A DNA stretch of 64,000 nt from Amoebophrya sp. A120 (Eukaryota > Protista > Dinoflagellata): contig CAJINV010000021.1 of NCBI GenBank assembly GCA_905178155.1, positions 349,760-413,759 of the forward strand, written 5' to 3'. The notes beneath the pieces are model-generated. The model saw only the letters and a program-made list of their open reading frames with translations. It was not told the origin of the DNA and ran no database searches. Shown here piece after piece: positions 1 to 63,022 of this stretch; the stretch's first letter is position 1, and the number at the start of each line of letters is the position of its first letter. Both the position numbers and the translations under genes were made by a program.

Positions 1-3000
1 AGGAAAATCAAAGCACCAGACGGGGGTCACCAACAAAGAATTTTTCTACACACGTCGTGAGGACTGCACGTCGACCAGTGATGGAAAAGGAAATGGCAAC
101 AGTGATCTTTTCCTTTGCGGCGAAAAGGAAAATTCGACCGGAGCAGTGGTTCCTGCTGTGGTGACAGCAGGCAAGGACTGCGCGTATAACGTGAACCATC
201 CCGCGAATTACTCAGTGCGGACGAAACTACAAAATGCTATTAGCAACCAGTCTCAGTCAAAGGGAGAACTCCAGGCGGGAGATGGTTCTGAAGGAGGGGC
301 AGCGGGGGATCACAGGCGGCAGATGCGAGGAGGACACGACCACCAGCCGCAAACGGTAACACAGAAGGAGCAAGTGGTGCCTGCAAAGAGTATCCTCTGC
401 AAAAGTATCGTCTAATTGTGGCCATACATGTCAGACTCAGATCTGCTTTCTCATTCTCACATGAATCTGAGTGACGAAGTCCACTGACTTTGTTTCCCTC
501 TTGACAAAAAATGTGATGAAGATGCAGCTGTAAAGTGCTTTTCCTTTTCCACCTCCAGTAAAATAAAGTAGTACGATAGTAATAGTTAACAGTACTTTTG
601 CATTTGCATAAAGATTGGCTCGAGGCCGCAACTTGTTCCGGAAGTAGATCAAGATCTGCGCATTCGGCAGAAAAAGACCGACTTTATTGTGGTGGCTTCC
701 ACTAGGCTGCAATCGGGGCTCGAGGAGCCGGAGTTGGAAACACTGGCAGAATATCAAATGCAGAAATGTCTGGGTCTGGAATGTTGCCGGGTTTGTCATG
801 CATATTTTGCATGACCCAGGAGCAGGATGTCTGTAATGCACGACCTAGCATCACAGATTTTTAGGGGGCTTTCTGGCGCGTATTCCGCATGAGAAATGCC
901 CTTTCCGTGTGGCACAAAGTAGACTTCTCTTGCTGGTCAGGCAATACAGATTTTTTCAGAGTCCACCAAAGCTAGCATCACAAGTTCCAACCTTCCAGAC
1001 CCAGACACTTTTGCATTTGATACAGAAGAGCTGGGGTTGGACTACATCGTGGAATCTCTCCCACCGCATCCGGAATCGCTGTCCGCTATCTGGTATGCAG
1101 TGCAAAAGCATCGTGCTAGTATAAATTGCAATACAAATTGGCTCAGCATTACAAGTTAAATTTGTGATGCGGATTTCCCTTAGCACTAAGATTTGTATAT
1201 GCATAAATGTACTTCGTTAGAAGTACGAGTGCGATACTTTTGCAGTTCATATCTGGGACCCCGAGGGGATCCGCGTGAGGATCTTGAAGCAATACGTGGC
1301 GGAGCAGGATCAAGATCAACAGCAGCGACAAGGACGTCGCGGGGAGCACCTCGTGCTGATGTGCGGACGAACCACGAGCGGACTTCCCCGGTCATTCAAT
1401 AATCGCCGCGGGGATTCTGCTTCTGGTTCTTGTTTGCGGGCCGCGGACGGACACGGAGTAACATCAAGTACTACTACCTTCGAACGCCGCGGCGGGCGGG
1501 GGAAGAACGCCAACGCGGGTGGTCATGGACGGGGGGAATTGAAACTGCTGATCTGCTGTCTGCAGGGAACCAGTCACATCCAGGCCTTCGCACGGGTCCA
1601 ATACGCGTTCGATCGATTACATCGCATTAACAGTGACGTTTGCCGACGGTTCTCATTTGTTACAGCTGCTCACCAGCAAAGCCGGCTGCTGCGGCGCTCC
1701 ATGGTGATTTCCATCCCGAAGGACATCCTTATGGGACTCTCAAACGTTACATTCTCAACTGTTACATGATTTGTCATGCAAAATGAACATCAACATCCCA
1801 CAAGGTGAAACTACTTCGCATGACAAATTTTTGAAAGGCTAAACAGCGCCTAAATCTGTGCGGAATTTGTAATGCTACAGGTGCGCCCTCCCTGCTTTGA
1901 CTTTTGCCATTCTTGCATCACAAATTCATGTAACAGTTGAGAATGTACTAACAGTTGAGAACGCCATAATCCTCAGCCAGCAACTGGAGGTCTACAACGT
2001 CCCGCGAAAGGATGGCGCTGCCTCCGACGGGGCTGACGCCGAGTCCTTGCTGCCGGTCTGTGGGTACTTCTACACGGGTAGTACTAGTAGTACTGTCGAT
2101 AGTAGAACTGTCGAGCCAGCAGCTGTTATTGAGAAGAGGAAGGAGCAAGACGCCGTGCCTGAAGATAATTCATCTCGTGAACTTCCTCAACACGATGAGC
2201 ACGAGAAAAATACCGTCCCGGTGTTCGAGCATGATGTTGATAACAGCAACTCTAGTATCAAAGATGCAGGCAAAAAATCTACAACTTTCGCGCCAGCTGA
2301 TGCAAAAATCATGCCCACGACCGGCACCTCAACCTCTTTGAAGAAGTCCGCACCGAAGACGGCGAGATTCTTCGTGAAAGAGCAGATAAGGCATCACAGT
2401 GGTCCTACTGTACTAGCCGGACCTCCACCTCCCACACAGCAGCCCCATGTTGAAGATAATCATATTAACGGTGATAAGGTACAAGCAGGGACGATGAGGA
2501 TAAACAACCTGGTCAACAGCAATATTCGAACCGAGCCTGATCAACATCTTGCAACATCAGAAAGGATTGGTGCGCCGACGTCGAGTACTAGTTCTAACTA
2601 TAGTAATGACGATGTCGCCCGTGCCTTGCAGCTGTTCCCTTCCCCACCAGACGAGTTCCAAAATCTAACTTTGGGCGAGGCGTGGGAGTATTGGTTTGAC
2701 TATGTGCGTAATTACGAGAAGCAGGAGGACGAGGACCACCATTCCGACTACAGAGGACCCGGCTGCACAACTGGGAAAGCAGCAATTACAACGCGTGCCA
2801 CGTTCTTTAAGGGTGATGAGGACCACAAGCAAAAAATAAATTCAGACTGTCCGCCCCCGTTTCCACCGACAATTTCGTCCACTAGCACCGCTGCTACGAA
2901 GTTGTACGCGAATAAGACCGGCGCGGGCGGGCGATGGCTTTGCATTGTCCAGGACAAGAAGAGCAGCTCGAAAGTACTGGAAGAAGTTCATGGGGACGCA

Positions 3001-6000
3001 GTCGCAGGTCCGACCAGGACAACTTGCTCGTCGTCGTCCGATCAGTCGAACAGCAAGCAGCAGGCTTTCATCTCCATCCGGCGCCTGCGTATGATTCTGC
3101 AGGGCCGCAATGTCCGCAGCGCGGCGCAACGGTACGCGAGGTTCCACGTTACCGAGGTGCCCCATTTGTCTCTGAACAGCGCGGGGGCTTCCTCGCCAGG
3201 TCCTGCAGGAGGGCTCTCTTGTCATCTACAACGTGGCAGCAGTACTAGTTCAAGCTCGTGTTCTGCTACCGAGGCCGACAATTGTTGGGCGACAGGAGAG
3301 CATTATAACCAGGACAACGCCAACGTGAATAAAGGAGCAGGGGCACCATCAATTTATAACGGTAAAAACGGCAAGATGATGATGAGAAAGAACCAGCGCA
3401 CCCCACGACCGGAGCAGTTCACCCTGAGGCCGGGCTGCCTGTGGCGCGTCGACGGGGTGCAGGAGTCGGCGGACGGGAGGTGCCTGGAGTACACGCTGAG
3501 TTTTTCTCTGTCGACAAACTTGAAAGTGGGCACTCTAGCGGCGGGCGGTGCGACTGCGACAACCTCCACGACCTGTGGTTCGTCGATCATGTCCTCTTCA
3601 TCCGAGGTGGATCTTCAGCGACGCGCAGAACATGCTGGGGCGAGCAGGAGCGTTGGAGGACCTGGACCACCGGGAGCTGCAGCTGTGCCTTCGGTAGTTT
3701 CGGACGTCGAGGGGCCGCATTGTTCGGCCGGCAAGAAAAGGGCCCTTGTCTCGTATGATGTGTTCAAAACCCCGCAAAAGGCGCAAGCTGCAGGGAACAA
3801 TTTCTGTCCCGCTACAGCAAGAACTACTACTTTCGGCGAGGATATTAAGGGCCAGAAGCTACCTTACGGACAGCACCAGCACACCCGCCCGCAGCATAAC
3901 GGAGACGTGGGTCAACATCGACAAGCACAAGCTCCCGCTGGGACGACAGGAGGACAGCGCGAAGAAGGACAACAGCTAGAGCCCCCGCGAAACAAGCACA
4001 AGGCGAAGGACCATCCCCGTGTTGGGGTGCTTGCGAGTTTGCACGATTGGAAGAAGCACCGGAAGATCGCGCTGAAGGTGAAAAACACGTTTTTTCATGT
4101 GGATGAGCCGGCGGTGGAGTCATCGGACGATGAGGTTGTTGTATCTTCTTCATCTACAACTACTTCAAGAGGAAATTCTTCAGGAACAACAAGTAATGCA
4201 AAGACGTTGCACGCCGACATCGGCGAGGAGGAGGACCAGGACCACACAACTGAGCGCCGTGATCAGCAACAACATCCTCGCCTTCGTCCACCTCCCGGAC
4301 GATCCCCGCCGCGGCACGGCTGCGACAAGCAAGTGCGGTCTCGCAGCTTGCAGCCGGACGAACTGAGGCTGACCTCTGCGAGGCGATGCTTACTCACGGA
4401 GTTCTTTGAGGATAGTACGACGTCGAAGATGTTGACACCGCCGCGGGGCCGCGGCGGAGGCGAAGATGCTGAGGTGGAGAAGAATGCTGTTTATGAACAC
4501 TATAATAATTTGATGTCCCCGCCGCGCGACGAGGAGCTGCAAGAATATGAAGACTCTAGGTACAACTGGAATTATGTTGAAACAACGCCAACGGCGCTCG
4601 GCGGAATCAACGACTTCTACTCGTCTAATTCGATGTCAGTGGAGGTCGAGAAGAATTTTTATCCACACGAGGACGAGGGGGAGGAGGAGCAGCTGCACAC
4701 GTCGCGCAGGAGCTTAATAAAGAAGATGCACAACAATTTATATAACAACCACAATATGAACAACATTCAGAGTCAACAGCAGCAGTTGCAGCACTACAAC
4801 CATTACCATGACTGCCGCGGCAGAATGGAGCAGCAATCTATGGCGCTGGCGTGGGAAAGTGTCGCTTTACCGGGCCGACGGTTGTTCGCGGATGGTCCGC
4901 CTCCCGAACGGATCTGGAAGCAGAGCAGCGGGTTTAACCAATGGACCAGCGAGAACATCACCATTGTGGTCACCTGTACGCACCTGGGGTTTGGAGACCT
5001 CTGGATGAAGCTCTGGCTCGCGGGCTACGAACCCGCGGACAACGTGGCGGCCGAGCGCATTGTGAAAAGTGTCGACGGCTGGTCGCAGATGTGCGGGGAC
5101 ATGTGCAACTTGTTGGCTGAAAAGGAAAAGCTGCAGAGCCAAAAAGAGAAAGTGCGTCGAATGATGAAGAACAAACTAGCTTCGTCCACCTCGACTGGTG
5201 GTCCTTGTTGTGCGGAGACAGAAAGATCGATCCACTCGTCATCTTCGTCGGTGGCGGGCGACGCGATGCTGACCGGAATGCATACGAGTGCTGTTAGCGA
5301 GAATACAACGCACCACGAGGAGGACAACGATGAAAATGAATCGGAACATCAATCCACAACGACGCTGAAGAAAACAACTGCAGATGAAACTACATCAGGA
5401 GATCATGACCTTCTTCTACACGAACAAGAAAAGTTTTCACAGATAGTCATCCGCCTGAGAAACTGCAGTGAGGAAATTGCGCAACTGAAGCACAAGATGC
5501 GTTTGCACGGGCTCCGCGAGATCAATGTGGAATATTGGCGGGAGCAGGATGCGTATATCCAGTACCGCCACCTGCCCCACATCTTGTGTCCCCCGACTCC
5601 GACATCCCCTTACAAGAAGAACAAGAGCCGGTCCATTTTTCGCAAGGTGATGCCCAGCGAGCGCAGCACCTCGGTGCAGGTGTGTCAGGATTTGGCGGCT
5701 TTGTCTTACCCGGACAAGACTTTTCTCACGGGCGTGATCTTTGACTCGGAGGCCATTTGCGCCACCTCCGACGGGTACGAACAAAGTAAGAATAACGGAG
5801 GTATGCTAGACAGCGCCAGTGGTAGAAATATGTATCAAATGCAAACACGTCTGGGTCTGGAAGATTCATCCGAGATTTGTCATGCAGTTTTTCCAAGCTC
5901 CGCCAAATCTGGAATGCAGGCCCTAGCATCGCAGGATCTGCAGCGCCTTGGTCGTGATGCCCATTCTGTATGAGAATGCCCTCTCTGGGGCGTGGCGAGA

Positions 6001-7051
6001 AATGGGGACCTTTTGCAAGTCATGCAACACGACAGATTTTAATTTTTGTATGATCCGCAACACGCATCACAAGTTCGCATCCTTCTAGACCCAGACTCAT
6101 TTTTGCAGTTGATAACATGCTGCCCACGTCGATGATCGGGAGTAGCAGTTGCACATCAACTACGAGCTGCAGCAGCTCAACAAGTTCAGTAGTAAATAAC
6201 TCTGCAATTATATCTGAGAAGGGACGAATTATGGAAAATAAAACTGTCGACGTGGAGGCATCAAGTAGCTGCGCATCATCTTCCAACAGCACCTCCGGTC
6301 GGAAAAACCCTTTCCAAGAGGCGGGACAAACCCACCTGAAGGCGGTGGAGTCTTTCCGAATGCTTATGGAGGCGTGTCGTATGAACTGCAAAAATGTCTG
6401 GGTCTGGAAGATTGCCAGGTTTGTCATGCATATTGTCCAGCATGACCCATGATGTCTGTGATGCATGCCTTAGCATCACAGATTCTGCGAGGGCTTTCTG
6501 ATGCTCATACAGCATGAGAAGTGCCGTCTCTGCGTAGCAAAAACTGGACCTATTTTGCTCTTCACGCAATACAGATTTTATGCAGAGTCCAGACGTAGCA
6601 TTACAAGTTGTATCCTTCCAGACCCAGACATATTTGCAAGGCATATGTCGCAAGCTGGCGCAAAACCGCCAGGGCTTTTCCGTGGTGAGTTTGCGGAAGG
6701 TGGGCGTCGGAGTCGAGGGGATCCAGGAGTGGAACCGGTTTCGGGGCGTATGCATTGCAAAAGTTAATAAAGTATCGTGCTAGAAGATGAAGTTGTACAA
6801 GAAATCGCATGACAAACGTTGCCAAAAGGAAAAATGGAACTTGTCACGCCGAATAAGGAATGTCATGCGAGACAACTTGTCATGCGAGACAACTTGCATA
6901 TATATGTTTATACGAAAGCAGCGACCGACATCATTTTTGCACAGCATACGCCACGATTCGCGCGCATTTTGCTCGGGACGGCGAGGAGCACGACGAGCAC
7001 CCGACCTCCAGCTACCAAATCCTGAATTGGGTTATCCTTAGGAAAAAATAA
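1..7051 (+). CDS. Large low-complexity hypothetical protein, 5'-partial, interrupted by 7 introners
   Basis: Frame open from position 2. Removing each element plus one direct repeat joins ORFs 146, 1275, 1897, 6117, 6580 and 6860 in frame (VVPAK|IGSR, TLAE|ELGL, SAIW|DPEG, PKDIL|SQQL, GRNM|LPTS, MEACR|KLAQ, RG|ATIR...RKK*). Confidence 0.75.
391..610. mobile_element. Introner, family B (degenerate)
   Basis: tatcctctgcaaaagta...tacttttgcatttgcata; flanks aagag/aagat; removal restores frame. Confidence 0.75.
752..1022. mobile_element. Introner, family A
   Basis: TIR tatcaaatgcagaaatgtctgggtctggaa / ttccagacccagacacttttgcatttgata; perfect direct repeat cagaa. Confidence 0.95.
1094..1251. mobile_element. 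Introner, family B
   Basis: tatgcagtgcaaaagcatcg...cgatacttttgcagttcata; perfect direct repeat tctgg. Confidence 0.95.
1730..1968. mobile_element. Introner, family C
   Basis: tatgggactctcaaacgttacattctcaactgttacatga...tcatgtaacagttgagaatgt...gttgagaacgccata; perfect direct repeat atcct. Confidence 0.93.
5833..6114. mobile_element. Introner, family A
   Basis: tatcaaatgcaaacacgtctgggtctggaag...ctagacccagactcatttttgcagttgata; flanks atatg/acatg. Confidence 0.92.
6380..6645. mobile_element. Introner, family A
   Basis: tatgaactgcaaaaatgtctgggtctggaag...cttccagacccagacatatttgcaaggcata; perfect direct repeat tgtcg. Confidence 0.95.
6749..6948. mobile_element. Introner, family B (degenerate)
   Basis: tatgcattgcaaaag...tttttgcacagcata; direct repeat eroded (gggcg/cgcca), but a 2- or 5-nt offset join restores the frame. 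Confidence 0.75.
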
Positions 7052-8860
7052 CCTATGATCTTCGTCCCATCGATGATCCAATTTCTCATGCAAGCATGTT
7101 TTGTACATACATAAATGCACACCCTAGTGCATCATCTAAGATGATGTACCAGGGTGTCGTATGCATTTATGCAAAAATCAAAGTAGTTACAGGGAGACGA
7201 CGATGACCACGGTTTTTTTTCCTGTGGATCTAAGTCGAGGGCTTCATTCTCGGTGCTGCAGCTAAGGAGCGCGCGGAGCGAGGCATCATCGATTGTCCTC
7301 GTGCAGAAGGAGGCAAGAACGTACAGAACTTTTCGCATCAGCACGCAGGAGCGACTGCTGCACTGGACCGACAAGCCGCATCGGAAAACGTTGCCGTCTA
7401 CATGGGCCCGTACGGCATTCCATTTTTTCTCATCGGGAAAGACAGCAAGGCACTCTACACTATCACGCCATTCACGGGGCTCGCAAAAATTGGAATGATT
7501 TTGACAGGAGTAGGCGGTGGTAATAAAGGCGATGGTGGAGGTTGTTCTGATAAATGATGACTTGAGGATTTTGAAGTTGTACAACTAAACGAAAATAATC
7601 AAAATTATCATGCTTTGGCTCTAGATTGAGCCAGTGCCAGCGGATAAGGATAAGGAAAAGGATAAGGAACTACTGCTTAACAGTGTACAAGAACTTCAAT
7701 TTCTACGACGACATCGTAAGAACTTTAAATGCTTAATGAGCCCGAGGAGTGGAGCGTCGAGTAGGGGGCGGCCATCTCATACTTGTAATCGCCTTTTTCG
7801 CGGGCTAAGGCTATTTTGAAGTTCTAGTTCTACTTCTAACCACAGGACTACGGGCGGAAAAATAATTTCTCAAAGAACAAGCAGAGTTGAGAACTATAAC
7901 TAGTCTCAATATCAATTAGTAAGCGTCCTGAATACCGGTCCGGCGTTTTGAAGTAGTAAATCCAGGAAGCGGAAGGACGATGGCACGACAGATGATTCTG
8001 GCGGTAGCATCTCGTCGTGTTCTTCAAAATCCTTTATCACTCCCTTTTTTTCCATCTTCATGTTCATGCCTGTACAGGTACACTAAGCCTTCGGTATCGG
8101 TTCGTACATCTAAATCTAAGTGCAGAAGTACGAGTGGAATTGCTCCTTCGCATTATAGAAACTCTAACTACTGCGCACAAACAATCGGCACCGCTTAATA
8201 TTGAACCTGCACCTGAAAAAAGTGCTGCTGTGAAAAAAATATTAAGTACGTAAAAACAAATACGAAAACAAAAATTTTTTTCGTGAAGGGGCGTGGTTGT
8301 CGAACATACAAACATCCTCCTCCTGCTTCAAGATAGTGCTGCGATAAGGACAACAATAATAACCTTCTCAGCTGCTCTCTGCTCAATGTTATTGCTGTAA
8401 TGCGTAGCTTCTCGGAACCTGTTGGTCGGCCCGGAGACCACAAACCTGCTCAACAAGTATTTGAAAGGATGGTTTTTGATCTTTCAGTAAGTTTTTCCGA
8501 CATTGTTTATACCTCAATGTCAATCCCAACAGCAAAAACAAAAATCGGATGTGCCTCCTGTGAAGGATTGAATGTGTGTAGTTTGTGCAAATAAAATTTG
8601 AACGAAACACTTCAGCAGATAGATTTAGAATTTTTCAGATCCTTCAGCGCGCTGCGTTTTACCTACAACTTCCCGATCTAGTAACTCTTGGGATCCTCCA
8701 AACGTTCAGGCTGACGAGCTTGTTCGGGAGGTCGGGAGCTAGCACTGCAGGGCCCGCTTATGGTGCAAGCCCTGGGGCCCCCAAGATAGTAGTTTTTTGG
8801 CTTGAAGGATCTAAAAATGTAGACACAAAACGAGCAGCTTCACATTGCACCCCAAAATAG

Positions 8861-11168
8861 TCCAGCGGCACAACGACGAAATGTGAGAAAAACGCACTGA
8901 GGAATATTTTAACTCAGATCCATATGGAAGCGTCAGAATCGAAATCAACAAAATCGAAATAATTTGTGATGCATAAAATCGCTACCAGTTGGAGCCTCAC
9001 CCTCAGTTTTCAAGCGGCGCATGACAAATTTCGGAAGCACCGAATTCCAGTCTGTCATGCTGTTTGGGCAAAGCCAGTTAGGAGAGTACCAAAGTGAGGA
9101 AAAAAGGCCAAGGTTTGTAGACAACGTCATGTTTACAGTGTGGCTAGGGGTGGGCCACCCAGGTCAGCTAGGCATGGGAAGAACGACACACAACGCACAG
9201 ACGCCAAAAAAGAGCTACATGACCTGCCCAGTCTGTCAAAAGAAAGTAGTGCCAAGCACAGACCACTTGCTTTTTCAGTGCGAAGACCCTACGCTAGTGC
9301 AATTGCGAAAAGAACACTTAGGCGCGCCATGCATAAAAGCCATGGATCCATGCATAAGTTTCGTCCGGGAGCGAAAAAACGTGAAAAACGTCCTGAACTT
9401 CTACGAGAAGGCCTCGCAGACACACGGAGGAACTCTGCCCACGGGGCTAGCGAACGCGATCAGAGGGGGACAGACGGTTTTCGACGAGGCGGACTACAAG
9501 GATGTGGCAGAATGGCAACCGGAGAAAAAGCCGAGCAAGGTCCAGGAGGGGGACCTGAACAAAATAGCGAGCAGGATCGGGAGGCTCTAGGAGAGAGACC
9601 GCCAACACGAAAACGAACAAAGCCGACAAACTGCTACGAACGAGGGGACTACGCTCAGCCGGGCAACTTCTCCGAAAAACCTGCACCCAGAAAAACCCCA
9701 CCACCCTTCCCCCCTCGCTTTAGGTCTATCTGGAGGACATGACACCTCTGGCTGCAGGAGCAGTCCCGGGGTGTTAGCGCGGGAGGAGCGGAACCGGTGA
9801 CCAGCTGCGTCAGCCAGGGCACATCGAAACAGGTGGGCCTAGGGCAATGAGGGTGTGCCAAGCGGAAGGTGGTGGAGATGGGAACGGAGACAGAGTAGAA
9901 CTTGTTGAGGCGCTTGTTGAGGCGGTAAAGTAGGTAGAAGCGTGAAGCCACAGCGCATAGTTAAGAAGTTAGAGAGCATGACACTGCGAGGCTCGACCCG
10001 TCCTCGAACGGGGGCGGGTGAATGTAGCAAGCGGTGATCGTGATACAGAGGCTGTCGCTCGTCCGCCACACTAGTTTCCTAACAGCAAGAAGAAAAAACA
10101 AGACAAGGCGCCTAAGCTACTACTAAAGCTTACGTGGTAAAACAGTAGAATAGCCGCGCGCCGCACTCAACCCAGGGGACCCGCTGAACGACGGCCGAGA
10201 GCCCGCCCGGTGAGGAGTTTCCTTATGTTCGTGTTCGTCTGCCCTCCACCCACTGCAGAAGAGCAACCTTGCAGATTTGAACCAGGTCGATCTTTTTCAA
10301 AATCTCTGGTTAATTCACTCCGGTCCGCCTTGCTCTTTGAAGATCCGTGCGAAAAAGCACATGAAAAGCTGCTGCCATGGTGAAGAACGGTTAGTACAAG
10401 CGCAGGCCCTAGAGTGTAACATGAACGGAATCGGGCTACAAGGCCACAGGTAAATCACCCCTGCGTCTTCCGGTCGGCCTTTACGAAACTGACTACAAAA
10501 AACCGCGACGGTAGAAAGGGGGCGGTCTAGTCTACGGTCTAGATCGTCTCCACTACCATTCGAAAAAACGCAAGTCCCAGCTATAGTACAACAGGAGCGG
10601 CATCCGACCCGAGTGTAGTCAGCCGGACCATTTTTAGAAGACGTTGCGAGGTGGGCGGAGAGGCATCACGCGTGCAGTGGAACGAGAGGAAGGCCAGCGT
10701 TCAACTGTGTGATGTTCGTCGTATACTGTCCTGCCTAGTTCACTATGTAGGTTATCTCTCTCTCTCTCTCATGCTGTTTGGGCAAAAAAGGCTACCCCTG
10801 TCATGCTACTTCGGCAGCGCATCGTCTTCCCCTAAACAGGCTTGCAATCAGTCTCATTTGCCTGCTCCCCAATACAGGCCATACGTGCCCTGCATTTTAT
10901 GCATTACAAATTTTTCGATTTTGTCTATTTCGATCCTGACGCTTCCATAATCCATTTAAAGGATGATGGAAGTCGAACAATTTATATTTTACCTCCAATG
11001 AAGATTGCATTGCTCTCCCTCTTCAATGGTGACCTTGAACAAAAAGCGCTGTCATTTTTTGGTATGAATGATAAGACCCAGCAGAAAATGATAAGAAAAA
11101 TCCTGTATGTGAAAATGATTTGTCAAGGACGAGACCGAGACGAATACGTGCGGGCAAGACCGACCTAG
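8861..11168 (+). CDS. 3' part of a hypothetical protein gene that hosts the introner/LINE composite; upstream exons unresolved
   Basis: After a candidate acceptor (aaaatag at 8860) the frame reads SSGTTTKCEKNALRNILTQIH and continues LKDDGSRTIYILPP...RARPT* once 8923-10949 plus atcca is removed. Confidence 0.45.
8923..10949. mobile_element. Introner, family D, expanded to 2.0 kb by a nested LINE insertion
   Basis: TIR tatggaagcgtcagaatcgaaat / atttcgatcctgacgcttccata; perfect direct repeat atcca; 313 bp without the insert, matching the other D copies (306-311 bp). Confidence 0.93.
9073..10768 (+). mobile_element. 5'-truncated non-LTR retrotransposon (LINE) fragment
   Basis: Flanked by 18-bp duplication tcatgctgtttgggcaaa (9055-9072 and 10769-10786); (TC)n tail at 10755-10770; ORF remnant to 9590 with C-terminal CCHC motif CPVC-x9-HLLFQC typical of LINE ORF2. 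Confidence 0.85.
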
Positions 11169-12743: not shown

Positions 12744-15700
12744 ATGTGGGCCGATGCGGTTTGTCTGTTTGAAGGGCAGCATCTTCATCAGACGGAGCAT
12801 GTCGCGCGTTATACCCCAAGCATCAGGGAAGAACTTGTTCTCAACGAGAGAACTACACATCATCAAGAAACTAGTTCATCTTCGACCACGTCCGGTTTCT
12901 TTATTGCCAAGAACGAACATGAGCAAGCAGAAGAGCTTACAGCTCGTGATTTTTTCCATAGTACTGCTCTTCACAACATACAGGGCCCAGCTACAAGCGC
13001 AACGATCTCCGCAAAGCGACCACGTGAGCCAGAAGTTCTTAACGGCGCGGCCGCGCACCAGCAGGATCCCAGCAGCGTCGGCCTGAAACGCTTCCACAGC
13101 GACGCAGCTGCCAGTGCGGCCGGCGCCGCGGCTTCGTCGCCAGAAGGAACTACGAGCGGGGAGGCAGCGAAGCTCGACGACTTGCTTGGGCTCTCCGGTG
13201 CCGGTGGCTCGAGCTCTTCATCCAGTTTGTGCCCGACGCCCTTGCTACCAATCCAACATCAACCTGGAGGTGGCGCAGCTGGTTCATCTTCCGGGGCCGC
13301 TGGAGGGACGGGGGCAATAAACTACAACACGTCCTCCACCTCTCTGAACAATTTGGTGCTCGGCCCGATGGTAACTTCTGCCTCGGGAGGTGCGGCCGGC
13401 AAAGGTGCGTCTGCGTCCTCAGCTGCTCTGCAATATGGCGCGACCTGGAATTTCTCTGGTGGCAACAGGCCAGCCAGCAGCAGCCACGCCATATGGCCGG
13501 AACAGCCATCGCCCCCGGTCACCGCGAGCGCGCCAGGTACTTAGTATTTGTATCGGGATAGGCTGAAGATGAAGAGTTGTACATGATCAAATTTGTCCTC
13601 CGTTGCTTCTCCGTTCGCACTTGTATCTAATTGCATGCCACAACACATTCATCCTAAACAAGTGACACTTGCCTACCGTGGTTGTAATCGAGTAAACCTT
13701 GTAGGTATTCTTTCTACGATGTACGTGTACCGTTCTACTTCTAAATCTAAAGTAAAGTTAGTGGTACTTTGACTTTGAGTTCGACTTTCTACTCTTCCAG
13801 GTGGTACAAACACCGGTGGCGGGACGGGAACCAATAATCCGAGTCCGAATACGCAGCTAGCACAAATCTTCGCCGTTTTGATATGCACTGCAAAAGTATC
13901 GTATTAGTCTTTCAATCACGTCCCGATGACGATGAATGCTCTCAGGAACATCGAAGTGTTGCTTCCCATGCTGCGAGGTCGTAGGAGCAGAAAGAGAAGA
14001 TATCTGTCGTGCATGATTGCAATCGATGAAGCGCGAATACGATGAACTTTTGCCTATTGAAACAAAGGCGAAAATAAGCCAAGCGGAACAGCCGGTGCCG
14101 GAGGGGGCGGTGGACAGTCCTCCGCGAGTAGTTCGCCCGGGTCGGTGCTAGACAACCTCCTGAACAGTGTGAATGAAAACACCAAGCCTGCGGCCGCTGC
14201 TGGTACACTGAATCTCGGCGGATTGAACATCAAAGAGCAGCCCGTGGTGGCACAACCAGGAGCTGCAGCGCAGCAACCCCCTGCGCCCGCTCCAAACCGG
14301 CGCGCATATCCGCAAAACACAAACAGCGGCGGGGGGTTGTTGACAAATAATCCGGGGGCGGGGGCAGCGCCGCCAAATAATCATGCGGCGATGAATGGGA
14401 ATGCAAATGCAAATCCACTTGGGAATCTACTAAATCCCAATCTATGGACGACTGCGAACAACAACGGCGTTTCCAGTTCTTCATCCGCAAATAATGTCCA
14501 AAATGCAGATCCCGAGGACCCGGTGCAAGCGTTCCTTCAGACCCTTTCGGAGACGCAGAGAAGCGTGAGTCAGCAGCAGATATTAGGCGGAGGCTCGTCC
14601 CTGTTGGCGAACGCTAAAGGCGGAGTAGGCGCTGGAGGCATTCTCCCCACTTCGACAAACCCAGGAGCTGGAACAACAGCCGGCGTAATTAACATTCCAG
14701 GAGCCACTGCAACTGCGGGTGCCGCGCCATCATCATCATCAAGTGGTTCGATCTTTTCCGAGCCCCTCCAGACGGCCGGTCCAGGGAACTCGCAATTCCT
14801 TCGTCCCGCGGACCTCGAGCAGTTGTTTCGCATTTTCGTGCAACGCCGTTGCGCGAAGGGTAAGGGTGCGGGGAAGCCGAGTTTACCCAAGTTGAAGCAG
14901 GATTTTGTGCAGTTTGTGCACACGCTGAAGGGCAAGGCGGCAAGCAAGGGCATGGCGTTTTCCTTCGCCGCACCCGGAAGTGTAGGGGGCACCGGTGGAG
15001 GTGGTGTAGCATTCGCAGCTCCCGCCGGGAATATTAACGCAGCAGCGACCGGGTCCGGGAGTGCGGTATAATTTTCAATTTTGATTTGTGGTATAGTTCT
15101 TTCTTTGTCATGCGTTTTGGTCTTGCGTTTATTTTTGCTTCGTGTTGTTCATAAAAGTAGTTCTTCCCACCGATCTTCGAGCGTCGGCCGCCGTGTCCGT
15201 GCTTGTTGTACTTACATTCTCACAACTGATGATGCAATTTGTCACAACAGAGTGGAATTCAACACCATCTCGGTCATCTCCCTACTGGCGGAATAAAGGG
15301 TGGACCGCAAGACGGCCTGCGCTCGGCGTCCAGTCTTTCGCGAGTATTGTAGGAATCAATGGGAAAAGATAAGCAGACGATGCTCAACACAAGAATGAAA
15401 ATAAAGTTCAACTCTTTACATCAGATTGCTTGATGTGCTGCGTTACAAATAAAAAAGTAATTTATTTATGAAAAAAAAAAATCCAGTTCTTCGTCCCTCC
15501 CGTCGTCGATCAGGCCCAGAAAGACCTGCGCGAGAAGGAGCGGCTGGCGGATCAGAAGCTCAAAGAGGTGGACGCATTGCTCGCGGAAGTGAAGGCCCGC
15601 TCGGAGAAACTGGCAGAGCGCGAGCAGGCGGTGAATAGTACTGGAGTTGTATCTAGTACTTCGAGTAGCAGCAGTGGAGGGCCAGGCGGAGGTGGTGGTC

Positions 15701-18559
15701 CTACGGCTGTCAAAACCAGAGCAGACTTCGCGACTGATGAAGGTACTTACTTTTCATCTGAGTTGTGATGTTGTTCACACGCAGGCTGAGTGTTGTTGTT
15801 TTCCTTTCATTCGTTAACAGTAGGAGAAGATAGAGAGTAATCCATGATACACAAGGACACATGTACATCATCAAACTACAGAATATGAAGCCTACAAAGC
15901 CGCGCCAAACAAGTATTCTGCGAAAGACTGGGAGCAGTGGTGGTCGTGGGTGGCAGACGGCAACGCTCCAGCGCCCGGAGGTGTCATGTCTTGAATTTCA
16001 GCACGAAGAAACTGTTTTTCTTTTTGTAGCGGTTTGTCCGCCAGGAGGAGGTTTATGGAAGTGTCAGAATCGAAATTGACAAAATCGAAATGATTTGTCA
16101 TGCATAGGATGGTTTCCAGTTCGAACCCAGTTTCTAAGTGGCGCGTCACAAATGCTGGCGGTGCCTAAATCCAGTTTGTAATGCTGTTTAGGCAAAGAAG
16201 ACTGATTCCCTCATGCTGCTTTAGCAGCTCGAGCTATAACCCCAAACAGGCTTACAATCGGCCTCACTTGCCTGCTCTGCAACGAACGCAATTCGCGTCA
16301 TGCATTTCATGCACCACAAATTTTTCGATTTTGTCAATTTCGATCCTGACAGTTCCATAAGGTTCGCGCTCTTCGTATTAATGGATCTATAGTGAAGATT
16401 TTTTCCGTGCTCGTACTGCATCACAGTCCCACTTCAAAGCGTGTTCTTGAAGATGAGAGTGACGTGTCAATGATATGGTTGCGTGAAAGGAACACTTTCG
16501 GATCTTCAACAGGTCCACCGCAGCCGAGTACAGCTACAGGCGGCACCGTCCAGCAGAGCGCCGCAAGCTCCTCGACCGCCGCGCCCCCGAATCTTGCCGG
16601 CTTTCCGCACTTTCAGCCCCAGGCGTTTGGGGCGGCCACGAAGGGCAATTTCCACCCTCAGCCCACCGGGATGCTGCAGCATCTGCAGGCCAGCATGGGC
16701 GGCAAATTCTTCGCCCCGGGGAAGTTTGGAAGCAAAGGCGGCAAAGCGGGTCCGGGAGGTGCCGCAACCGCTGGAGCCGCACATCACATGCAGCAGCAAT
16801 TCAACCCTGCTGCACTCCCGAACTTCGGCGGTGGTGGTCCAGGTGCGCCTCACAAGGGCGGTCTGGGCGGGGGCTACAACAACCATCATCTGAAGGGCGG
16901 CATGATTCCAGCTCCAGGCTTGAACGGCATGGTACCTCCGAAAGGTGGGAAGAATTCTCACGATCACTTCACACCGAATCATCACATGCAACATCACGGG
17001 AAACCCGGAGGTCCACCCTACAAGGGAGCTGGTGCACCAGGGATGTTGCCGCAGCACCAAGGCGGAGGTCCTCCGCCCGGGATCATGCCTCATCTGAACG
17101 GAGCCGGTCCGCCGAGCGGTGGCAAACCCGGGGTAGGGGCTGCAACTAGCAACCCAACTGCTCAACATCTGCCGTTCGGCCACCAGCCACACGGTAGTAC
17201 TACCGGCGGCCCTGTGATGAACCAACAACGAAACAATACAGGAGGGTCTGGTGGTCCTGGCGCCGGTGTTGTAGCTGGTGCTCCTGGGAACAACAATGCT
17301 AGCAATAATTCGAGTAGCACAACGACCGGAGCTGGTGCGCCTTCTTCTACATCAAATAACGCCAGCGCGACGACCACAACTACACCCAAGGGGTCGTTTT
17401 TGAACAGCAAGGGATATGCAGCGTTCAACCCAAGCCCGGCGGTGGTCAACGGTGTCGGTCCTCCGGTGCATCATAGCAACATGCCGCTCGTCGGACCTCC
17501 AATGAACGGTGCGATGCCCATCCATCCGATCGGGGCGGGACCACCTCCTGGCATGGTCGGAGTCGGACCTCCCAACATGATACACCACCAGCATCAACCG
17601 ATGATGAATGGCGTTGGCCCGCCGGGGACGATGAATGGCGTTGTGCTAGGAACTGGACCTCATCAGCCTCCTCCCGTGCCTCCGGCCCCACCAGTACATC
17701 AAGCGCCACCTCCTCCGGAGCCGAAAAACAGTTTTCCCCCGGACCAAAACCCGTTTCCGGATCAGCAGCTGCTCCCCAGAAGCGACAGTGCCGCGAGCGA
17801 AAACAAAGAGAACAGCAGCCAGCAGATTCTCCCCGCTATCGCGACCGACATGGCGGCAGGAGGCTCCACAGCGCTTATCGCACAGAAAGAGGGAACTGGG
17901 GCATCATGTTTGTTGCATCATGCGAAATAAAGATGAACAATAAGTTTTTATAATGCTGCATCCAGGGTGGGTCTATAACTATATCTTTTTCTTTCTGCAG
18001 GGATCCAAAGTCCAATAACACTCAATCTACCTCCTGCATGTTGCAGTGTTTTGAATGTAGGCAACATGATCTAAGACAAGAACTTGATGCTCTAGTACAA
18101 CCTTTTTCCCGCACCATACTCCTATCTGTGTTAAAAAGCGTTCATGGAAACAGTAACAGCACTGCTAACGTTCTCCCTGCGGCTGCGAACCATGTGAAAG
18201 ACTCGGGGATCGCGATTGACGTGCGGAAGCCGCTGAGTATCAATCTAAGAACGAACGTTTGCGCCCCCGCGGCTGGAGAGAACAAGGAAAACGCTGATCC
18301 TGTTGGTGTTCTTGACAAGGAGAATCAACAACCCGGGATCGTCGATGCTCAAGCTGGTGCGGAGACTAAGCCTGATACAACTGCCGGAAAATCAGCAGAG
18401 CAACTGGCGCAGGAAGAACAGGAGCGGAAATTTCAAGAAATTTTGGTTGGCACATAAGATCAAACTGTTATTGACTTATTACCTACTTCATCAAAACTGC
18501 AGGAGCTGAAGCGAGCATGCAATAACTCCAGGAATAATAAAACACCACCAGACAATTGA
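12744..18559 (+). CDS. Gly/Pro/Asn-rich low-complexity hypothetical protein, multi-exon (boundaries approximate)
   Basis: ORFs 12741, 14145, 15568, 16392 and 18038 can be linked by GT-AG introns (e.g. 13537-13800) and two introners (FAVL|NKGE, QEEV|RAL). Confidence 0.6.
13882..14056. mobile_element. Introner, family B (degenerate right end)
   Basis: tatgcactgcaaaagtatcgta...acttttgccta; flanks tttga/ttgaa; a 5-nt offset join restores the frame. Confidence 0.75.
16054..16359. mobile_element. Introner, family D
   Basis: tatggaagtgtcagaatcgaaattgacaaaatcgaaa / tttcgattttgtcaatttcgatcctgacagttccata; perfect direct repeat aggtt. Confidence 0.95.
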
Positions 18560-49338: not shown

Positions 49339-50506
49339 AATAAGTTCGGATGGAAATATGATAAGGGTGAAAAGATGTTTCCGAAGATGAAAAAGCCGAG
49401 TTTTGATCTCCGCGAAACCAAAAACCAAAAATTAGATTATGTATCTACAATAGAATGCAAATGAATCAACTACGTGCAGCAAGACAGAGAGATTACAGAT
49501 GATCACTCTGCCTGCCTGGTAGCGGAGGTAGTTTTCGACCTATATTAAGACTTTCTTGCTGCAAGTATTCGGATTGCCATTTTTCGCTGTCGAGAAAGAA
49601 GGTGTGTTTTTCTCGCAAAAGGGCATATAGAATGAATCGAGAACAACAAATGTAAACAATTCCGCGGATCTTGTCATCTACATCTTCGACAGCCAGGGAA
49701 TTATCTGGTGGCCTGCTTCGCAAGCTATGCTGCTTGACGCTAAACGTAAACGTAAAAAACTCCTTGAAAATAAGATTTTGAATTATGCACGTAAAGAAGT
49801 ACTTAGAATATCCCACACTGATAAAAACTCGGCTTTGTGCAGCACTCAAGAGCGCCTATTTCGTTGGCATCGGATTTACATTTCTTCAACAATCTTGCAT
49901 GCATAATTTTGATTTCACGTATAGTCACAAGTGTAATTATGTTCGTTACGCGACCTCATCGGCGCTCCGTCATTGATGCTTGACTTTCGGTATTGAGATT
50001 GATACGGCGTGTTCCTGCTCCGGTGCCTGTTCCGGTGCCTGCTCGACCTTGCCTCGTTGGCACAACGGAATAGTTATGGGACGAAGACTTCAACATAGAG
50101 CGATAATCTTTTCTACGATGTGGTAGTAGTTTTGGTATGTCTATTGAGGCGCACAATTTTTAATTTTGAAGACGGGACCGAGAGTAGTTGTAGTTCAGTT
50201 CCACTAGGTGTGATGTGTTTGTTGTGCTCGTCGTCCTCGTTCCCCGCCGCTAAAGTTTTGTACAAGGACGCAACAGAGTGAAAGCATGAGCGAAAGGCTG
50301 TGCGGAGCAGGTCGACTATTTCGCGTCCGTGCTACCTACTTAGCGAGTTCTTTTTGGAGGATACATACTGCCTACAACTTCATCAGAAGGTTTGAAACAA
50401 CGTCGTAAATGAACGGAAAGAACCGATCTCCAAGACCGATCTTACCAACAGACGGAGGGGTAGAGCACTAAGACGCTTCAGAGCTGTGCAATAGAACCAC
50501 AGAACA

Positions 50507-56900: not shown

Positions 56901-58017
56901 CCGGCAGAGCACTCTGACGAAGTTACTTGCGGAGTCATTCCGGAAGCCGCCGACACGTACGTGAGTTGTTGCGAAGTAGATTTTTTTAGTGCTGTTTTTT
57001 GAGCGTCTAGAGCGGGGAGAAGGTGACCGCTGCAATTCATAGAAAATACAGCGAAGCAATGACAATGACTCAAGAAAAAGTCTGAAAACGGTATCGCACA
57101 TCAAAACACGAACCTCTCAGCCCCGAAACCCGTGATAAACCGCCTTCCCGGCACCAGTCCCAAAACCGCCCTTGCGATGGCATCGCGCGCGTCGCAATTG
57201 GGAGGACCTGCGCCCGTTGATCAGCTCCTCTCGACGACGTCGCAAGAAGTAGAAGGCACCGGGTTCTCATTCGCAGACGGTTCTTCGTCCGGCGGTCCAA
57301 CCCGATTGATCGGCGTGATTGTCACGATATCGCCGAACGTTACCGACATCGAGCACAGTCTGACAACTCTCCGCGCCGGCTACGGAATGAAAAACAGCAA
57401 GCAGCAGTGCACACACAGTGTGAAACTGACGGATCTGAAAAAATTTATCGGCGAAAAGGACATCCGCTACGTACCGGTGAACAAGTGGACCCCAGATCAG
57501 GTCGCACTCTGGGTCACGTCCCTCCAGCCCCCGGCACCAGACGGAAAGTCGGAGCTGCCGAAAAAGCTCCCGGGGGGAACGACTGGGGCGATGATGCTGC
57601 GGTTTCAGGCAAATCGATTTCACCAGGTGTTTATGCATTGCAAAAGTATCGTACACGTTCACGTACTCGTATAAATGCATTACAAATTTCCTCAGCATGA
57701 GAAATGGAATCTGTTGTGCTGTTTTACCTTAGGAAGAAGATTTTTTGTCATGCATATTTACAAGTACTACGACTACGAGTGCGATACTTTTGCGCAGGAT
57801 AGTGCTTGGCGACAAGCTCGGGGAGAAAGTCTACACTATTTCCTGAAAATTAAGCACTTCCATCCAATTTGTCATGCAGAACATGTAGTAAACGTAAAGT
57901 CTGTGTTTGTCATGCAAAAAGTAGATCATGGGGATGGTTAGAAATTTTCAGGGAATATACACCCAACTTCGCAAAGAAGTGGAGACACCGACGGCCTTCA
58001 TATATGATGATGACTAG
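53932..58017 (+). CDS. Kinesin motor protein, kinesin-13-like, with N-terminal MGGCC and C-terminal SAM-like segment
   Basis: Motifs FCRKRPL, FAFDCAFDE, P-loop GQTGSGKT, switch I NDTSSRSHAV, switch II-like LVDAAGTER, EINASLYALKECIR, FRQSTLTKLL, VTISP; canonical introns plus two introners. 3' end approximate. Confidence 0.88.
57632..57801. mobile_element. Introner, family B
   Basis: tatgcattgcaaaagtatcgtac / gtgcgatacttttgcgcaggata; flanks gtgtt/gtgct. Confidence 0.92.
57837..57957. mobile_element. Introner, family K (single copy here)
   Basis: tatttcctgaaaatt / aattttcagggaata; perfect direct repeat tacac; join KVYT|QLRKE. Confidence 0.9.
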
Positions 58018-60502: not shown

Positions 60503-63022
60503 ATGGAAAGTTTACGACCTGTGCCGTTACGGATGTCGGGGAAACAAAGCCTTGCCTCGTTGCTCATCTGCAGTTTTCTGTTTCCCAACAGCACGACTTC
60601 CCTCACCTCCGTCGCCGCTCTCTCGTTCGGCGAGGCACTTCTTCAGAAACGGCGCCAGCGCGCTGACAAGTGTCCTCCGCCGGCGGACTGCAAGTGCCAC
60701 TGCGAGTGCCCCGCGCCGGTCTCGAAGCCGCAACCTCCGCCCGGCAAACCCTGCCCCTTTGTCCCGATCCCGCCGGGCGCGAAACCGAAGCCCCCGGCCG
60801 AGACGCGATGCGCGACCGGGTTTGTCAAGCGGGCGAACCTAGAATGTGCCGAGATCACACCGGAAATCATCACCGAGTTACAAAGCGTGGTCGCCGTGAA
60901 ACTGCAGGAATTGAACCTCGCCCGGACCAACTTTCAAGCGGAGAAGGATCTGATCGCGAGTGGAAAACCCAGTGGCAACAAGGAGTTGCACCGGAAACTC
61001 CTCCTGAAAGCGCACGACGCCTACGAAACCAGCCTGGACTATCCACAAAAAAGCACCCATCGCCATTCAATTTGTCATGCAAAATATTAATATGCATCAA
61101 ACGCAGTGTTTGTCATGCAAAACATAGATGGGGATGCGTGTTTTTACTTGGATATGGACATGCTTCTGAACGCGTGGGATATGGCGCCGTTCCGGAAAAA
61201 GAAGGCCGCGGCCGACGGTCCCGTAGCGGAAAAACCGGAATTCGTGAGTTTCGCAACCCTGGTTTCTGCCGACGAACAACAAACGCAGCCGCACTGCGAG
61301 AGTTGGACTTCTTTACTGGAAAACTACGACGTTAGCGAAAAGGACTGTGCGGTCATGTGTCGGCAGCAGCCGAATTGCGTCGGCTTTGCGAAGGTCAAAC
61401 CCGCAGAAAAGGACTTTTGCGTGTGGTTCACAGCAAATGCGAATACAAACAATCAAGCTCCTAACAAGTGCTTCGACCCCTCTTCCGACCTCAGCGCGCA
61501 GTACTTCAAGAAGAACCGCGAGGAACAAACCGACCTGCAACGACCGATCTCCAAGGACATGTCGGGGCTGTCCCGGTTGCAGGACATCCTCGCGATCCAG
61601 ATGGCGGACACGGATTTTGATGCGCACGGGGCGATATCAAATGCAAAAATGTCTGGGTCTGGAACTTGTGATGCGTCCTGTGGGTCACACAAAAATCTGT
61701 GTTGCGTGATCACCAAGAGTTGTGCTTTTTTGACCAACATGAGCGGGAGTTTCTCATGCGGGACAGGCATGGCGGAGACTTCGCAGAATCTATCATGCTA
61801 GGTCCTGCATTCCAGACCTCATGGGGCATGAAAAATATGCATGACAAATCTGCACTCTTCCACACCCAGACATTTTTGCAATGCATAGGCGACGGACAAA
61901 TTTGACCAGTGGAAAAACGAGGGCATCAGCATCGAGGACACAAGTACAGTATCAACTGTAAAAATGTCTGGGTCTGGAAAAGTGCAACTTGTCATGCTAA
62001 ATCTGAATCATACAAAAATCTGTGTTGCATGATTACGAATAAAGCTGTTCACTTTTGAGAAGGCCGAGAGGCAGTTTGTCATGCGGAAAAGGCATAGTAA
62101 AGATCTCACAGAATCTGTGATGCTACGGCATGCATCACAGACCTCACACGTCATGCAAAACCTGCATCACAAGTCTGGCATTCTTCCAGACCCAGACACT
62201 TTTGCAATCCATATACAGTGGAACAGTTTCAACATTCCAAACAGTTGTACACGGACGAGGTGGTGAATACGAAGAAGGTGTATGCAATGTAAATTCCCTG
62301 TACATGATGTACAAAATGCATGACAAATTTCTCTAACTTGCAGCGTCCAACTTGTCATGCTAGACTAGGAGTGAGGGCAAGTTTTGTCATGCAGAAACTG
62401 CATTTGCACGTGTGCGAGAAATTTACTGTGGATAAGGTGTGGATACAGATGATGGAGGTGGCGCGGAGGTTGGCAGAGGAAATCCGGGATGATACGGACG
62501 CCGTCGACCCGCTGCCGGCACCGAAGCCGGTATTTATGGTGTACTTTCCGTGTGTGTAGAAATGGAATGGAAGAATTATGTATCTAACTCTATTCGCATG
62601 TGAATGTGAAGAGGTCGTGACCGCGTGTTCGTGGTCCGCGTTTACAACGTTGGTTTATCTTTGTCAACTACTATCTCAATCGTTATTGCCATCAACTACT
62701 TGTTTATATGTCTTCATGAATGTACAACTTCTACGGATTATGAATGTTGGAGCTGCATCTTCTATTGATGATGTTGTAATCACGACAGGCACCAGCGCCC
62801 CCTCCGCCGAAGAAGAAACCCACGTGGGCCGACCATCCCAACTACGACGATACAAAGTGGTCGCAACGGCACCCGGACTGCCCACAGGGACCGCCGTGCG
62901 TCTGCGACTGTAACTGCCGCGGAGCCCCGCCGCAAAACTTCATTGACCCACCACCGCCGCCACCGAAACCGTGTCCCACAGTGGACCCACCGCCCGCAGG
63001 GGGAATCACGCCGATTCGATGA
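60503..63022 (+). CDS. Putative secreted Cys/Pro-rich protein with PAN/Apple-like domain, 4 introners
   Basis: Hydrophobic N-terminus; CPPPADCKCHCECP and CPQGPPCVCDCNC motifs; SEKDCAVMCRQQPNCVGF...CVW resembles PAN/Apple; joins SLD|MLLN, HGA|TDKF, TST|VEQF, KKV|WIQM; GT-AG intron about 62530-62788. Confidence 0.72.
61040..61154. mobile_element. Introner, family I
   Basis: tatccacaaaaaagcacccatcgccat / atggggatgcgtgtttttacttggata; perfect direct repeat tggac. Confidence 0.9.
61635..61887. mobile_element. Introner, family A
   Basis: tatcaaatgcaaaaatgtctgggtctggaa / ttccacacccagacatttttgcaatgcata; perfect direct repeat ggcga. Confidence 0.95.
61950..62213. mobile_element. Introner, family A
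   Basis: tatcaactgtaaaaatgtctgggtctggaa / ttccagacccagacacttttgcaatccata; perfect direct repeat tacag. Confidence 0.95.
62281..62434. mobile_element. Introner, family H
   Basis: tatgcaatgtaaattccc / gagaaatttactgtggata; perfect direct repeat aggtg. Confidence 0.9.

What the first reader, a model, noticed from the sequence alone, without database searches (positions are those of the whole stretch)
391..62434. 36 TIR/TSD-bounded elements act as non-GT-AG introns (introner system) in nearly every gene
Seen: 36 elements of 115-320 bp in about 11 families, 34 of them bounded exactly by TAT...ATA, with TIRs and 5-bp flanking direct repeats of arbitrary sequence. Removing element plus one repeat restores the frame each time I translated the join. 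Because the repeat sequence varies, the boundaries cannot generally be GT-AG. Established: non-canonical introner elements with inverted and direct repeats were reported in Amoebophrya (Farhat et al. 2021, BMC Biology), and to my knowledge their removal mechanism is unresolved. Inference: a second, structure- or protein-guided excision pathway works alongside the canonical spliceosome, which handles the GT-AG introns in the same genes.
Basis: partly seen in the sequence, partly recalled or inferred. Interest (0 to 1): 0.9.

Follow-up and report, generated by a model that had tools for sequence, protein, structure and literature searches.

The report
Amoebophrya introners cut at fixed register
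These are the already published transposon-derived introns of the marine parasite Amoebophrya A120: each is removed from the RNA together with exactly five flanking bases, the informative copies all fit one cut position, and that position suggests they are likely removed by a loosened ordinary spliceosome rather than by a second machine.

Summary
The window is Amoebophrya sp. A120 (public proteins 100% identical). I count 37 elements of 115-320 bp, 33 bounded by TAT...ATA, each with a 5-nt flanking repeat, in 7 of 10 modelled genes. These are the introner elements of Farhat et al. 2021. RNA contigs and the public gene models show removal of element plus 5 nt for 25 of 37; DNA-like contigs retain the elements. 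What I add: ten copies whose two repeats differ allow only one common cut, after repeat base 4. The intron is then N-TAT...ATA-NNNN, so its start reads N-T-A-T, like the host's canonical donors GTAT/GTAC without the G. In 322 copies from a related assembly, donor-side T and A changed once against nine times on the acceptor side. This favours one relaxed spliceosome (about 60%) over a separate hairpin-guided pathway (about 25%). Tests for drift towards GT/AG were negative, and no lariat data exist here.

The parts
391..610 (+). element, repeat mismatch at base 5; frame only
   Evidence: not covered by RNA
752..1022 (+). element, main family; frame only
1094..1251 (+). element; frame only
1730..1968 (+). 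element; frame only
5833..6114 (+). element; RNA joint 5829>6117 skips 287 = 282+5; cut after repeat base 2 or later
   Evidence: X3, X4
6380..6645 (+). element; RNA joint 6374>6646 skips 271 = 266+5
   Evidence: X1, X3, X4
6749..6948 (+). element with only 2 of 5 repeat bases alike; RNA joint 6746>6952 skips 205 = 200+5; cut after base 3 or 4
   Evidence: X1, X3, X4
7033..7230 (+). element ending ATC; RNA leaves at 7032 and resumes at 7236 (198+5); cut after base 3 or later
   Evidence: loose end (X4) read
8923..10949 (.). element split by a 1.7-kb insertion with its own 18-nt direct repeat; not placed in a gene
13882..14056 (+). degenerate element ending CTA; frame only
16054..16359 (+). element; frame only; could also be read GT-AG at register 2
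21565..21872 (+). element; frame only
21921..22076 (+). element; RNA piece starts at 22077 and the contig runs on upstream (skip size not measured)
23191..23501 (+). element; RNA length fit
23551..23818 (+). element, main family; RNA length fit
24314..24565 (+). element, main family; RNA length fit
26525..26674 (+). element; RNA length fit
26902..27136 (+). element; RNA piece resumes at 27138, cut after base 1 or later
27507..27635 (+). element whose register-4 intron (27506-27639) is GT-AG; RNA skips 134 = 129+5
   Evidence: X2 record 7
34336..34591 (+). element; cut after base 3 or later (RNA piece ends 34333; annotation agrees)
35206..35476 (+). degenerate element ending ATT, no hairpin signal; cut after base 4 or 5 by annotation
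35592..35844 (+). element, main family; empty in paralog
36782..37101 (+). element; RNA piece ends 36778, cut after base 2 or later
37139..37310 (+). element; RNA length fit and annotation
37642..37869 (+). element; RNA length fit and annotation; empty in paralog
37965..38115 (+). element; ends predicted unpaired; RNA length fit and annotation
38240..38517 (+). element, main family; empty in paralog
39082..39272 (+). degenerate element starting TAG, no hairpin signal; cut after base 4 or earlier by annotation
39785..39994 (+). element; empty in paralog
40036..40194 (+). element; RNA piece resumes 40195; empty in paralog
44516..44777 (+). element, main family, inverted relative to 23551; annotation; empty in paralog
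44823..45101 (+). element; annotation; empty in paralog
57632..57801 (+). element in kinesin gene; repeat mismatch at base 4; cut after base 4 or 5 by annotation (Phe, not Leu)
57837..57957 (+). element in kinesin gene; annotation
61040..61154 (+). element; frame only
61635..61887 (+). element, main family; frame only
61950..62213 (+). element, main family; frame only
62281..62434 (+). element; frame only; could also be read GT-AG at register 2

Best explanation
These are short non-coding terminal-inverted-repeat elements of Amoebophrya A120, sitting in exons between 5-nt direct repeats and removed from the RNA as element plus 5 nt, with the cut inferred to lie after repeat base 4 and the removal likely done by the ordinary U2 spliceosome with relaxed end rules. 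Steps: (1) insertion by an unidentified DDE transposase with a 5-nt stagger (inferred from fixed repeat length, both orientations and empty paralog sites); (2) removal in RNA, not in the DNA sampled (shown); (3) one register, intron = N-TAT...ATA-NNNN (shown for the 10 informative copies taken together, 3 of the constraints resting on the public annotation only); (4) the TAT end supplies +2 to +4 of the host donor GTAT/GTAC, and because both ends read TAT inward either orientation works (inferred); (5) +1 G and the 3' AG are dispensable, the 3' cut being measured from the element end, perhaps helped by the hairpin or by a protein on the shared 9-nt motif (inferred, untested).
For: DNA-like run X5 has one piece 26923-35632 across three elements. 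Register: RNA limits 6749 to base 3 or 4; annotation gives at least 4 at 35206 and 57632 and at most 4 at 39082; only 4 fits all ten, chance 0.0014 if each cut fell at random. At 57632 a GT-seeking aligner would have chosen the other residue. Donor likeness: 25 GT introns in the window have +3 A in 23 and +4 T 11, C 7, G 4, A 3; donor-side element ends keep TA in 37 of 37 window copies; in 322 perfect-repeat copies from loci L003-L144 donor-side T/A changed in 1 and the third base in 12 (C 10, G 2), acceptor-side 9 and 4, Fisher p 0.004; T>C changes deeper in the repeats are even, 13 vs 15. All nine 'predominant' A120 non-canonical motifs in Farhat Table S4 have T at +2. Hairpin-poor copies are removed.
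Against: No test of the enzyme, lariat or branch point. In the related assembly repeat mismatches show no drift to G at +1 (left G 5 of 16, right G 6 of 16) or A at -2 (3 vs 2 of 12), and only a weak one to G at -1 (7 vs 2 of 14); GT and AG are not enriched in target repeats and 9 of 238 are GT-AG in any register; a codon-likelihood test could not tell register 3 from 4 (7 of 14). The asymmetry test was found after looking at 24 positions, strands are predicted, and the third-base effect alone is p 0.08 without the strand filter. The annotation may derive from the same RNA as runs X1-X4, all one sample; independence is not shown. My canonical donor set is partly my own choice (15 of 25 backed by RNA length or annotation). 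Table S4 may reflect aligner preference. U1 snRNA was not detected in A120. Nothing here explains how the 3' site is chosen without AG.
Confidence: 0.6

Rival explanations
1. A separate, non-spliceosomal pathway (as proposed for Euglena nonconventional introns) recognises the terminal hairpin or the shared 9-nt motif and cuts at a fixed offset, 1 nt before and 4 nt after the element, then ligates the exons.
For: Most elements fold far better than shuffles (z below -4 in 30 of 37); end dinucleotides are free (31 different pairs in 37 at register 4); no drift to GT/AG; 89 of 91 hits of a 9-nt motif lie in elements, which cover 8,561 of 64,000 bases; U1 not detected; in Euglena the inverted repeats matter for splicing and the authors suggest distinct factors (PMC12501133 passages).
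Against: The offset lands TA exactly on canonical +2/+3; donor-side TA is conserved while the third base changes without compensation (10 TAC copies with an unchanged partner end); wobble-keeping changes are not favoured (48 vs 37, 26 vs 20, both n.s.); hairpin-poor copies are removed; one copy (27507) is an ordinary GT-AG intron in the same register.
Confidence: 0.25
2. The elements are excised from DNA at some life stage (like ciliate internal eliminated sequences), and transcripts come from the cleaned copy.
For: Ends and repeats look like transposase substrates; X5's joint table was swamped by repeats, so rare excised DNA could not be seen.
Against: X5 pieces run into or across the elements; contigs lacking elements also lack GT-AG introns and do not cover the silent stretch 29672-31005, so they are mature RNA; the end asymmetry follows gene direction.
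Confidence: 0.05
3. The joints are reverse-transcriptase template switches across hairpins flanked by direct repeats, and the real mRNA keeps the elements.
For: Hairpin plus direct repeat is the known signature of such false introns (recalled, not from a call); evidence is cDNA-based.
Against: Retention breaks the genes yet paralogs stay 399 of 728 aligned residues identical and collinear; up to 8 elements are missing from one contig stretch; 6749 is removed precisely with only 2 of 5 repeat bases alike; hairpin-poor copies are removed.
Confidence: 0.03

Closest known systems
Introner elements of Amoebophrya sp. A120 (Farhat et al. 2021, PMC7789003; sections 10, 11, 12, 16, 25, passages and supplement part 3 read; figures not seen)
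   Same: Same organism; inverted repeats starting TAT, seven looser bases, then As; 3-5 nt direct repeats at the borders; RNA-supported removal; mixed with GT-AG introns.
   Different: Their Fig. 3 legend calls the splice sites variable relative to the hairpin and the border unknown; here one register fits all informative copies. [quoted passage not shown] They found no family-specific IR motif; a 9-nt motif is shared across families here.
Introners of Micromonas and Aureococcus (review PMC11282704, passages)
   Same: MITE-like elements with TIR and TSD; one cut falls inside the duplicated target so the exon is restored.
   Different: They supply or co-opt real GT/GC and AG; here neither +1 G nor AG is needed.
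Fritillaria borealis non-canonical introns (PMC11282704, PMC13326754, passages)
   Same: Transposon-derived introns without GT-AG removed by an adapted U2 spliceosome: the model I favour.
   Different: They have preferred ends (AG-AC, AG-AT) and duplicated U2AF; here +1 and the last four bases are free.
Euglenid nonconventional introns (PMC12501133, PMC11282704, passages)
   Same: Terminal inverted repeats, direct repeats at borders, coexistence with GT-AG introns.
   Different: CAG/CTG end motifs and unknown, possibly non-spliceosomal machinery; here the ends are TAT/ATA and match the host donor.
IS3EU/GingerRoot DNA transposons (PMC10045372, passages)
   Same: TA..TA termini.
   Different: Usually 6-bp TSD against strictly 5 here; no transposase found to compare.

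Membership tests
Amoebophrya A120 introner elements | genome is A120 | tested here: met
   three window proteins 100% identical to records named Amoebophrya sp. A120
Amoebophrya A120 introner elements | inverted repeat TAT + 7 nt + A stretch | tested here: met
   end sequences; 33 of 37 TAT..ATA; definition
Amoebophrya A120 introner elements | 3-5 nt direct repeat at borders | tested here: met
   5 nt; exact in 22 of 37 and 322 of 562 related copies, against 5 for 4 nt and 0 for 6 nt
Amoebophrya A120 introner elements | repeated and removed from transcripts | tested here: met
   31 of 37 have a relative in the window; 21 of 37 RNA-supported, 4 more by annotation
Non-autonomous TIR DNA transposon (MITE) | TIRs, fixed-length TSD, empty homologous sites, both orientations | tested here: met
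   11 of 13 sites in the paralog pair alignable, all empty and gap-free; main family 55 vs 61 orientations
Non-autonomous TIR DNA transposon (MITE) | cognate autonomous element or transposase | tested here: inconclusive
   12 long end-pairs found; the two with long ORFs inspected (L059, L079) are host genes between unrelated ends or have no transposase likeness by eye; no whole genome held
IS3EU/GingerRoot | TA..TA termini | tested here: met
IS3EU/GingerRoot | 6-bp TSD | tested here: not met
   0 of 562 with exact 6-nt repeat
U2 spliceosomal intron | GT-AG ends | tested here: not met
   1 of 37 at register 4, 3 of 37 in any register; 9 of 238 related copies
U2 spliceosomal intron | host donor bases at +2 to +4 | tested here: met
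   register 4 gives T-A-T/C/G, as in 25 canonical donors; rests on the inferred register
U2 spliceosomal intron | lariat with branch adenosine; U2/U6 dependence | not testable with these tools
   only assembled contigs of this strain were available
Euglenid nonconventional intron | end-pairing stem | tested here: inconclusive
   strong in most copies, absent in some removed ones
Euglenid nonconventional intron | CAG/CTG end motifs | tested here: not met
   ends are TAT/ATA; motif

The most novel reading that the evidence does not exclude
A120 has a single spliceosome that reads only N-T-A at the donor and no 3' dinucleotide at all, counting four bases past the transposon end (perhaps through an adaptor that binds the shared 9-nt subterminal motif or the hairpin). 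Any TAT-ended transposon is then a clean intron in any exon and either orientation, which would explain tens of thousands of 'signature-less' introns by one rule and extend to A25, whose repeats start TTA and whose main motifs are TT-NN.
Probability: 0.4. Interest if true: 0.75.

Novelty: already known. Interest (0 to 1): 0.42.

Why it matters
The elements themselves are published for this strain. How more than 60% of A120 introns are removed without GT-AG is stated as open in the source paper, which leaves the border position unknown. A fixed cut after repeat base 4 names the first intron base, so lariat sequencing, a genome-wide register count and spliceosome-block tests become sharp yes/no experiments, and it would correct intron annotation in this genome. 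I did not find the fixed register or the donor-mimic reading in print, but the Farhat figures and Roy et al. 2023 (Curr Biol, not read) were not seen and may bear on it.

Tried and rejected
No whole genome held. No run on record as RNA was listed as a holder; X1-X4 are guessed RNA and behave as spliced RNA. Raw RNA run X7 laid only 28 reads, on element ends, so it could not test junctions. The 391-1968 junctions were not covered. The annotated protein of gene 1 was not found, so the base-5 mismatch at 391 is untested. The 229-nt stretch alone was underdetermined (333 solutions) until the element at 35206 was recognised and the model matched P0003. A candidate element at 43952-44153 was rejected: a GT-AG intron 43971-44156 fits paralog and annotation. 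My idea that old copies drift to GT-AG, drawn from five window copies, failed in the larger set. Codon-likelihood and wobble tests were null. A fixed branch A seven bases before the 3' end is weak: 13 of 25 canonical introns, and the acceptor-side signal depends on the strand filter. Two viral-contig pattern hits are chance. No Rfam hit in the window. Earlier findings look-ups were empty.
Full report
Observation. A scan for TAT..ATA stretches with an exact 5-nt flanking repeat gave 25 pairs, 23 with at least 9 of 15 terminal bases complementary; 30 dinucleotide shuffles gave 0-2. Adding mismatched and degenerate copies gives 37 elements of 115-320 bp, 33 bounded by TAT..ATA, with repeats exact in 22, one mismatch in 10, two in 4 and three in 1, in 13-17 similarity groups. 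A further copy at 8923-10949 is split by an insertion. A 9-nt motif (both strands) has 89 of 91 hits inside elements. Of ten genes modelled, all on the + strand, seven carry elements (8, 2, 8, 11, 2, 2, 4) and three none.

Identity. Exons of three genes are 100% identical to public records named Amoebophrya sp. A120. Farhat et al. 2021 (PMC7789003) describe in this strain repeated non-canonical introns with inverted repeats that start TAT, seven looser bases, then As, and 3-5 nt direct repeats; 29,850 such introns; U1 not detected; border position unknown. The finding is therefore the published system.

Removal in RNA. Contigs of runs X1-X4 (one sample, RNA by guess; they lack GT-AG introns and X1, X2 do not cover the silent stretch 29672-31005) join 5829>6117, 6374>6646 and 6746>6952, each element + 5 nt, and leave at 7032 to resume at 7236. 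X2 joins 27504>27639. Contig offsets require 1837 nt of exon between 23184 and 27639, and 229 and 947 nt in the gene at 34-40 kb; models that remove 17 elements plus GT-AG introns give exactly these. Three of four solutions gave 1837 and I took the one with only GTA donors; the 229-nt stretch alone had 333 solutions. The models then matched P0002, P0003 and P0004 with no difference over the aligned length. In all, 21 of 37 have RNA support, 4 more annotation support, 1 partial RNA support and 11 frame only. Run X5, which holds 0.90 of the words, keeps the elements (piece 26923-35632), though its joint table was swamped by repeats.

Insertion origin. In the tandem paralogs (399 of 728 aligned residues identical), 11 of 13 element sites are alignable and all are empty and gap-free in the other gene. 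Of 562 distinct elements there, 322 have an exact 5-nt repeat, 5 a 4-nt and none a 6-nt one; the main family lies 55 to 61 in the two orientations. No autonomous copy was found. TA..TA ends recall IS3EU/GingerRoot, but those usually make 6-bp duplications (PMC10045372 passages).

Register. Where the two repeats differ, the transcript shows which copy stays. RNA: base 1 from the left at 26902, base 2 at 5833 and 36782, base 3 at 7033, 27507 and 34336; at 6749 base 3 from the left and base 5 from the right. Annotation (BLAT of assembled transcripts plus Gmove): base 4 from the left at 35206 and 57632, base 5 from the right at 39082. Only a cut after base 4 fits all ten; random cuts would satisfy all with probability 0.0014. 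RNA alone gives 3 or 4; the step to 4 rests on two annotated residues, whose independence from these runs is not shown. The one copy that is GT-AG in this register is 27507.

Mechanism. In register 4 the intron starts N-T-A-T. The window's 25 GT introns have A at +3 in 23 and T 11, C 7, G 4, A 3 at +4 (15 of them backed by RNA length or annotation). All 37 window copies keep TA on the donor side. Among 322 perfect-repeat related copies with predicted gene strand, donor-side bases 1-2 changed once and base 3 twelve times (C 10, G 2); acceptor-side nine and four times (Fisher p 0.004; p 0.015 when one repeat mismatch is allowed). This was found after scanning 24 positions, and the base-3 contrast alone is p 0.08 without the strand filter. 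All nine motifs listed as predominant for A120 in Farhat Table S4 have T at +2, which fits but could be aligner bias. Most elements fold well, yet 35206 and 39082 do not (z -0.3, +0.3) and are removed, and wobble-keeping changes are not favoured. Against my reading: no drift to G at +1 or A at -2, no GT or AG enrichment in targets, no power in the codon test, and no explanation of 3' site choice. I put a relaxed U2 spliceosome at 0.6, a separate pathway at 0.25, DNA excision at 0.05 and a cDNA artefact at 0.03.

Comparison and verdict. It is a member of the A120 introner class; it works like the Micromonas introners in cutting inside the duplicated target, and likely like Fritillaria introns in using an adapted spliceosome (PMC11282704 and PMC13326754, passages); it resembles euglenid nonconventional introns in anatomy only (PMC12501133 passages). 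PMC12130899, PMC12005148, PMC11453091 and bioRxiv 10.1101/2022.06.08.495308 were read as passages and give no register. The fixed register and donor mimicry were not found in searches; the Farhat figures (S19-S25, Fig. 3) and Roy et al. 2023 were not seen, and one sentence in Farhat section 11 may foreshadow the register. Novelty: already known, with a new testable detail; interest 0.42.

Noticed in passing
window 8923-10949: An element split by a 1.7-kb insertion with an 18-nt direct repeat (9055, 10769) and a TC-repeat tail; weak zf-RVT likeness (E 0.12), possibly a truncated non-LTR retroelement. No match in the related loci.
   Followed up: partly
window 29000-31000 and 59100-60000: Two very G+C-rich blocks between genes; 29672-31005 has no contig cover in X1 and X2 but normal cover in X5. 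They match neither each other nor the loci, and have no Pfam hit.
   Followed up: partly
window 49782-49907: Intergenic 126-bp inverted repeat with a 5-nt direct repeat but ATT ends and none of the 9-nt motif; another family or chance.
   Followed up: no
window 33922-40470 and 41648-45790: Tandem paralogs (P0003, P0004) with no Pfam family; one has 11 elements, the other 2, at different sites, and they share one GT-AG intron position.
   Followed up: partly
all elements: A 9-nt motif of the form TTGTCATGC occurs on both strands in nearly all families (89 of 91 hits inside elements); candidate transposase or splicing-adaptor site.
   Followed up: partly
window 16054-16359 and 62281-62434: Repeats starting AGGT allow a GT-AG reading at register 2 that gives the same mRNA.
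   Followed up: no
window 23551-23620, run X7: Raw RNA reads under the same species label match only element ends, with unrelated flanks: a different strain sharing the family and carrying an element end in its RNA.
   Followed up: no
loci L003-L144: The family of 21921 shows 21 to 4 orientation bias while three others are even; may be a scoring artefact of near-palindromic elements.
   Followed up: no
window 31350-32910 and 54249-58020: A TPR protein gene (one GT-AG intron, no element) and a kinesin gene (two elements near its 3' end).
   Followed up: yes
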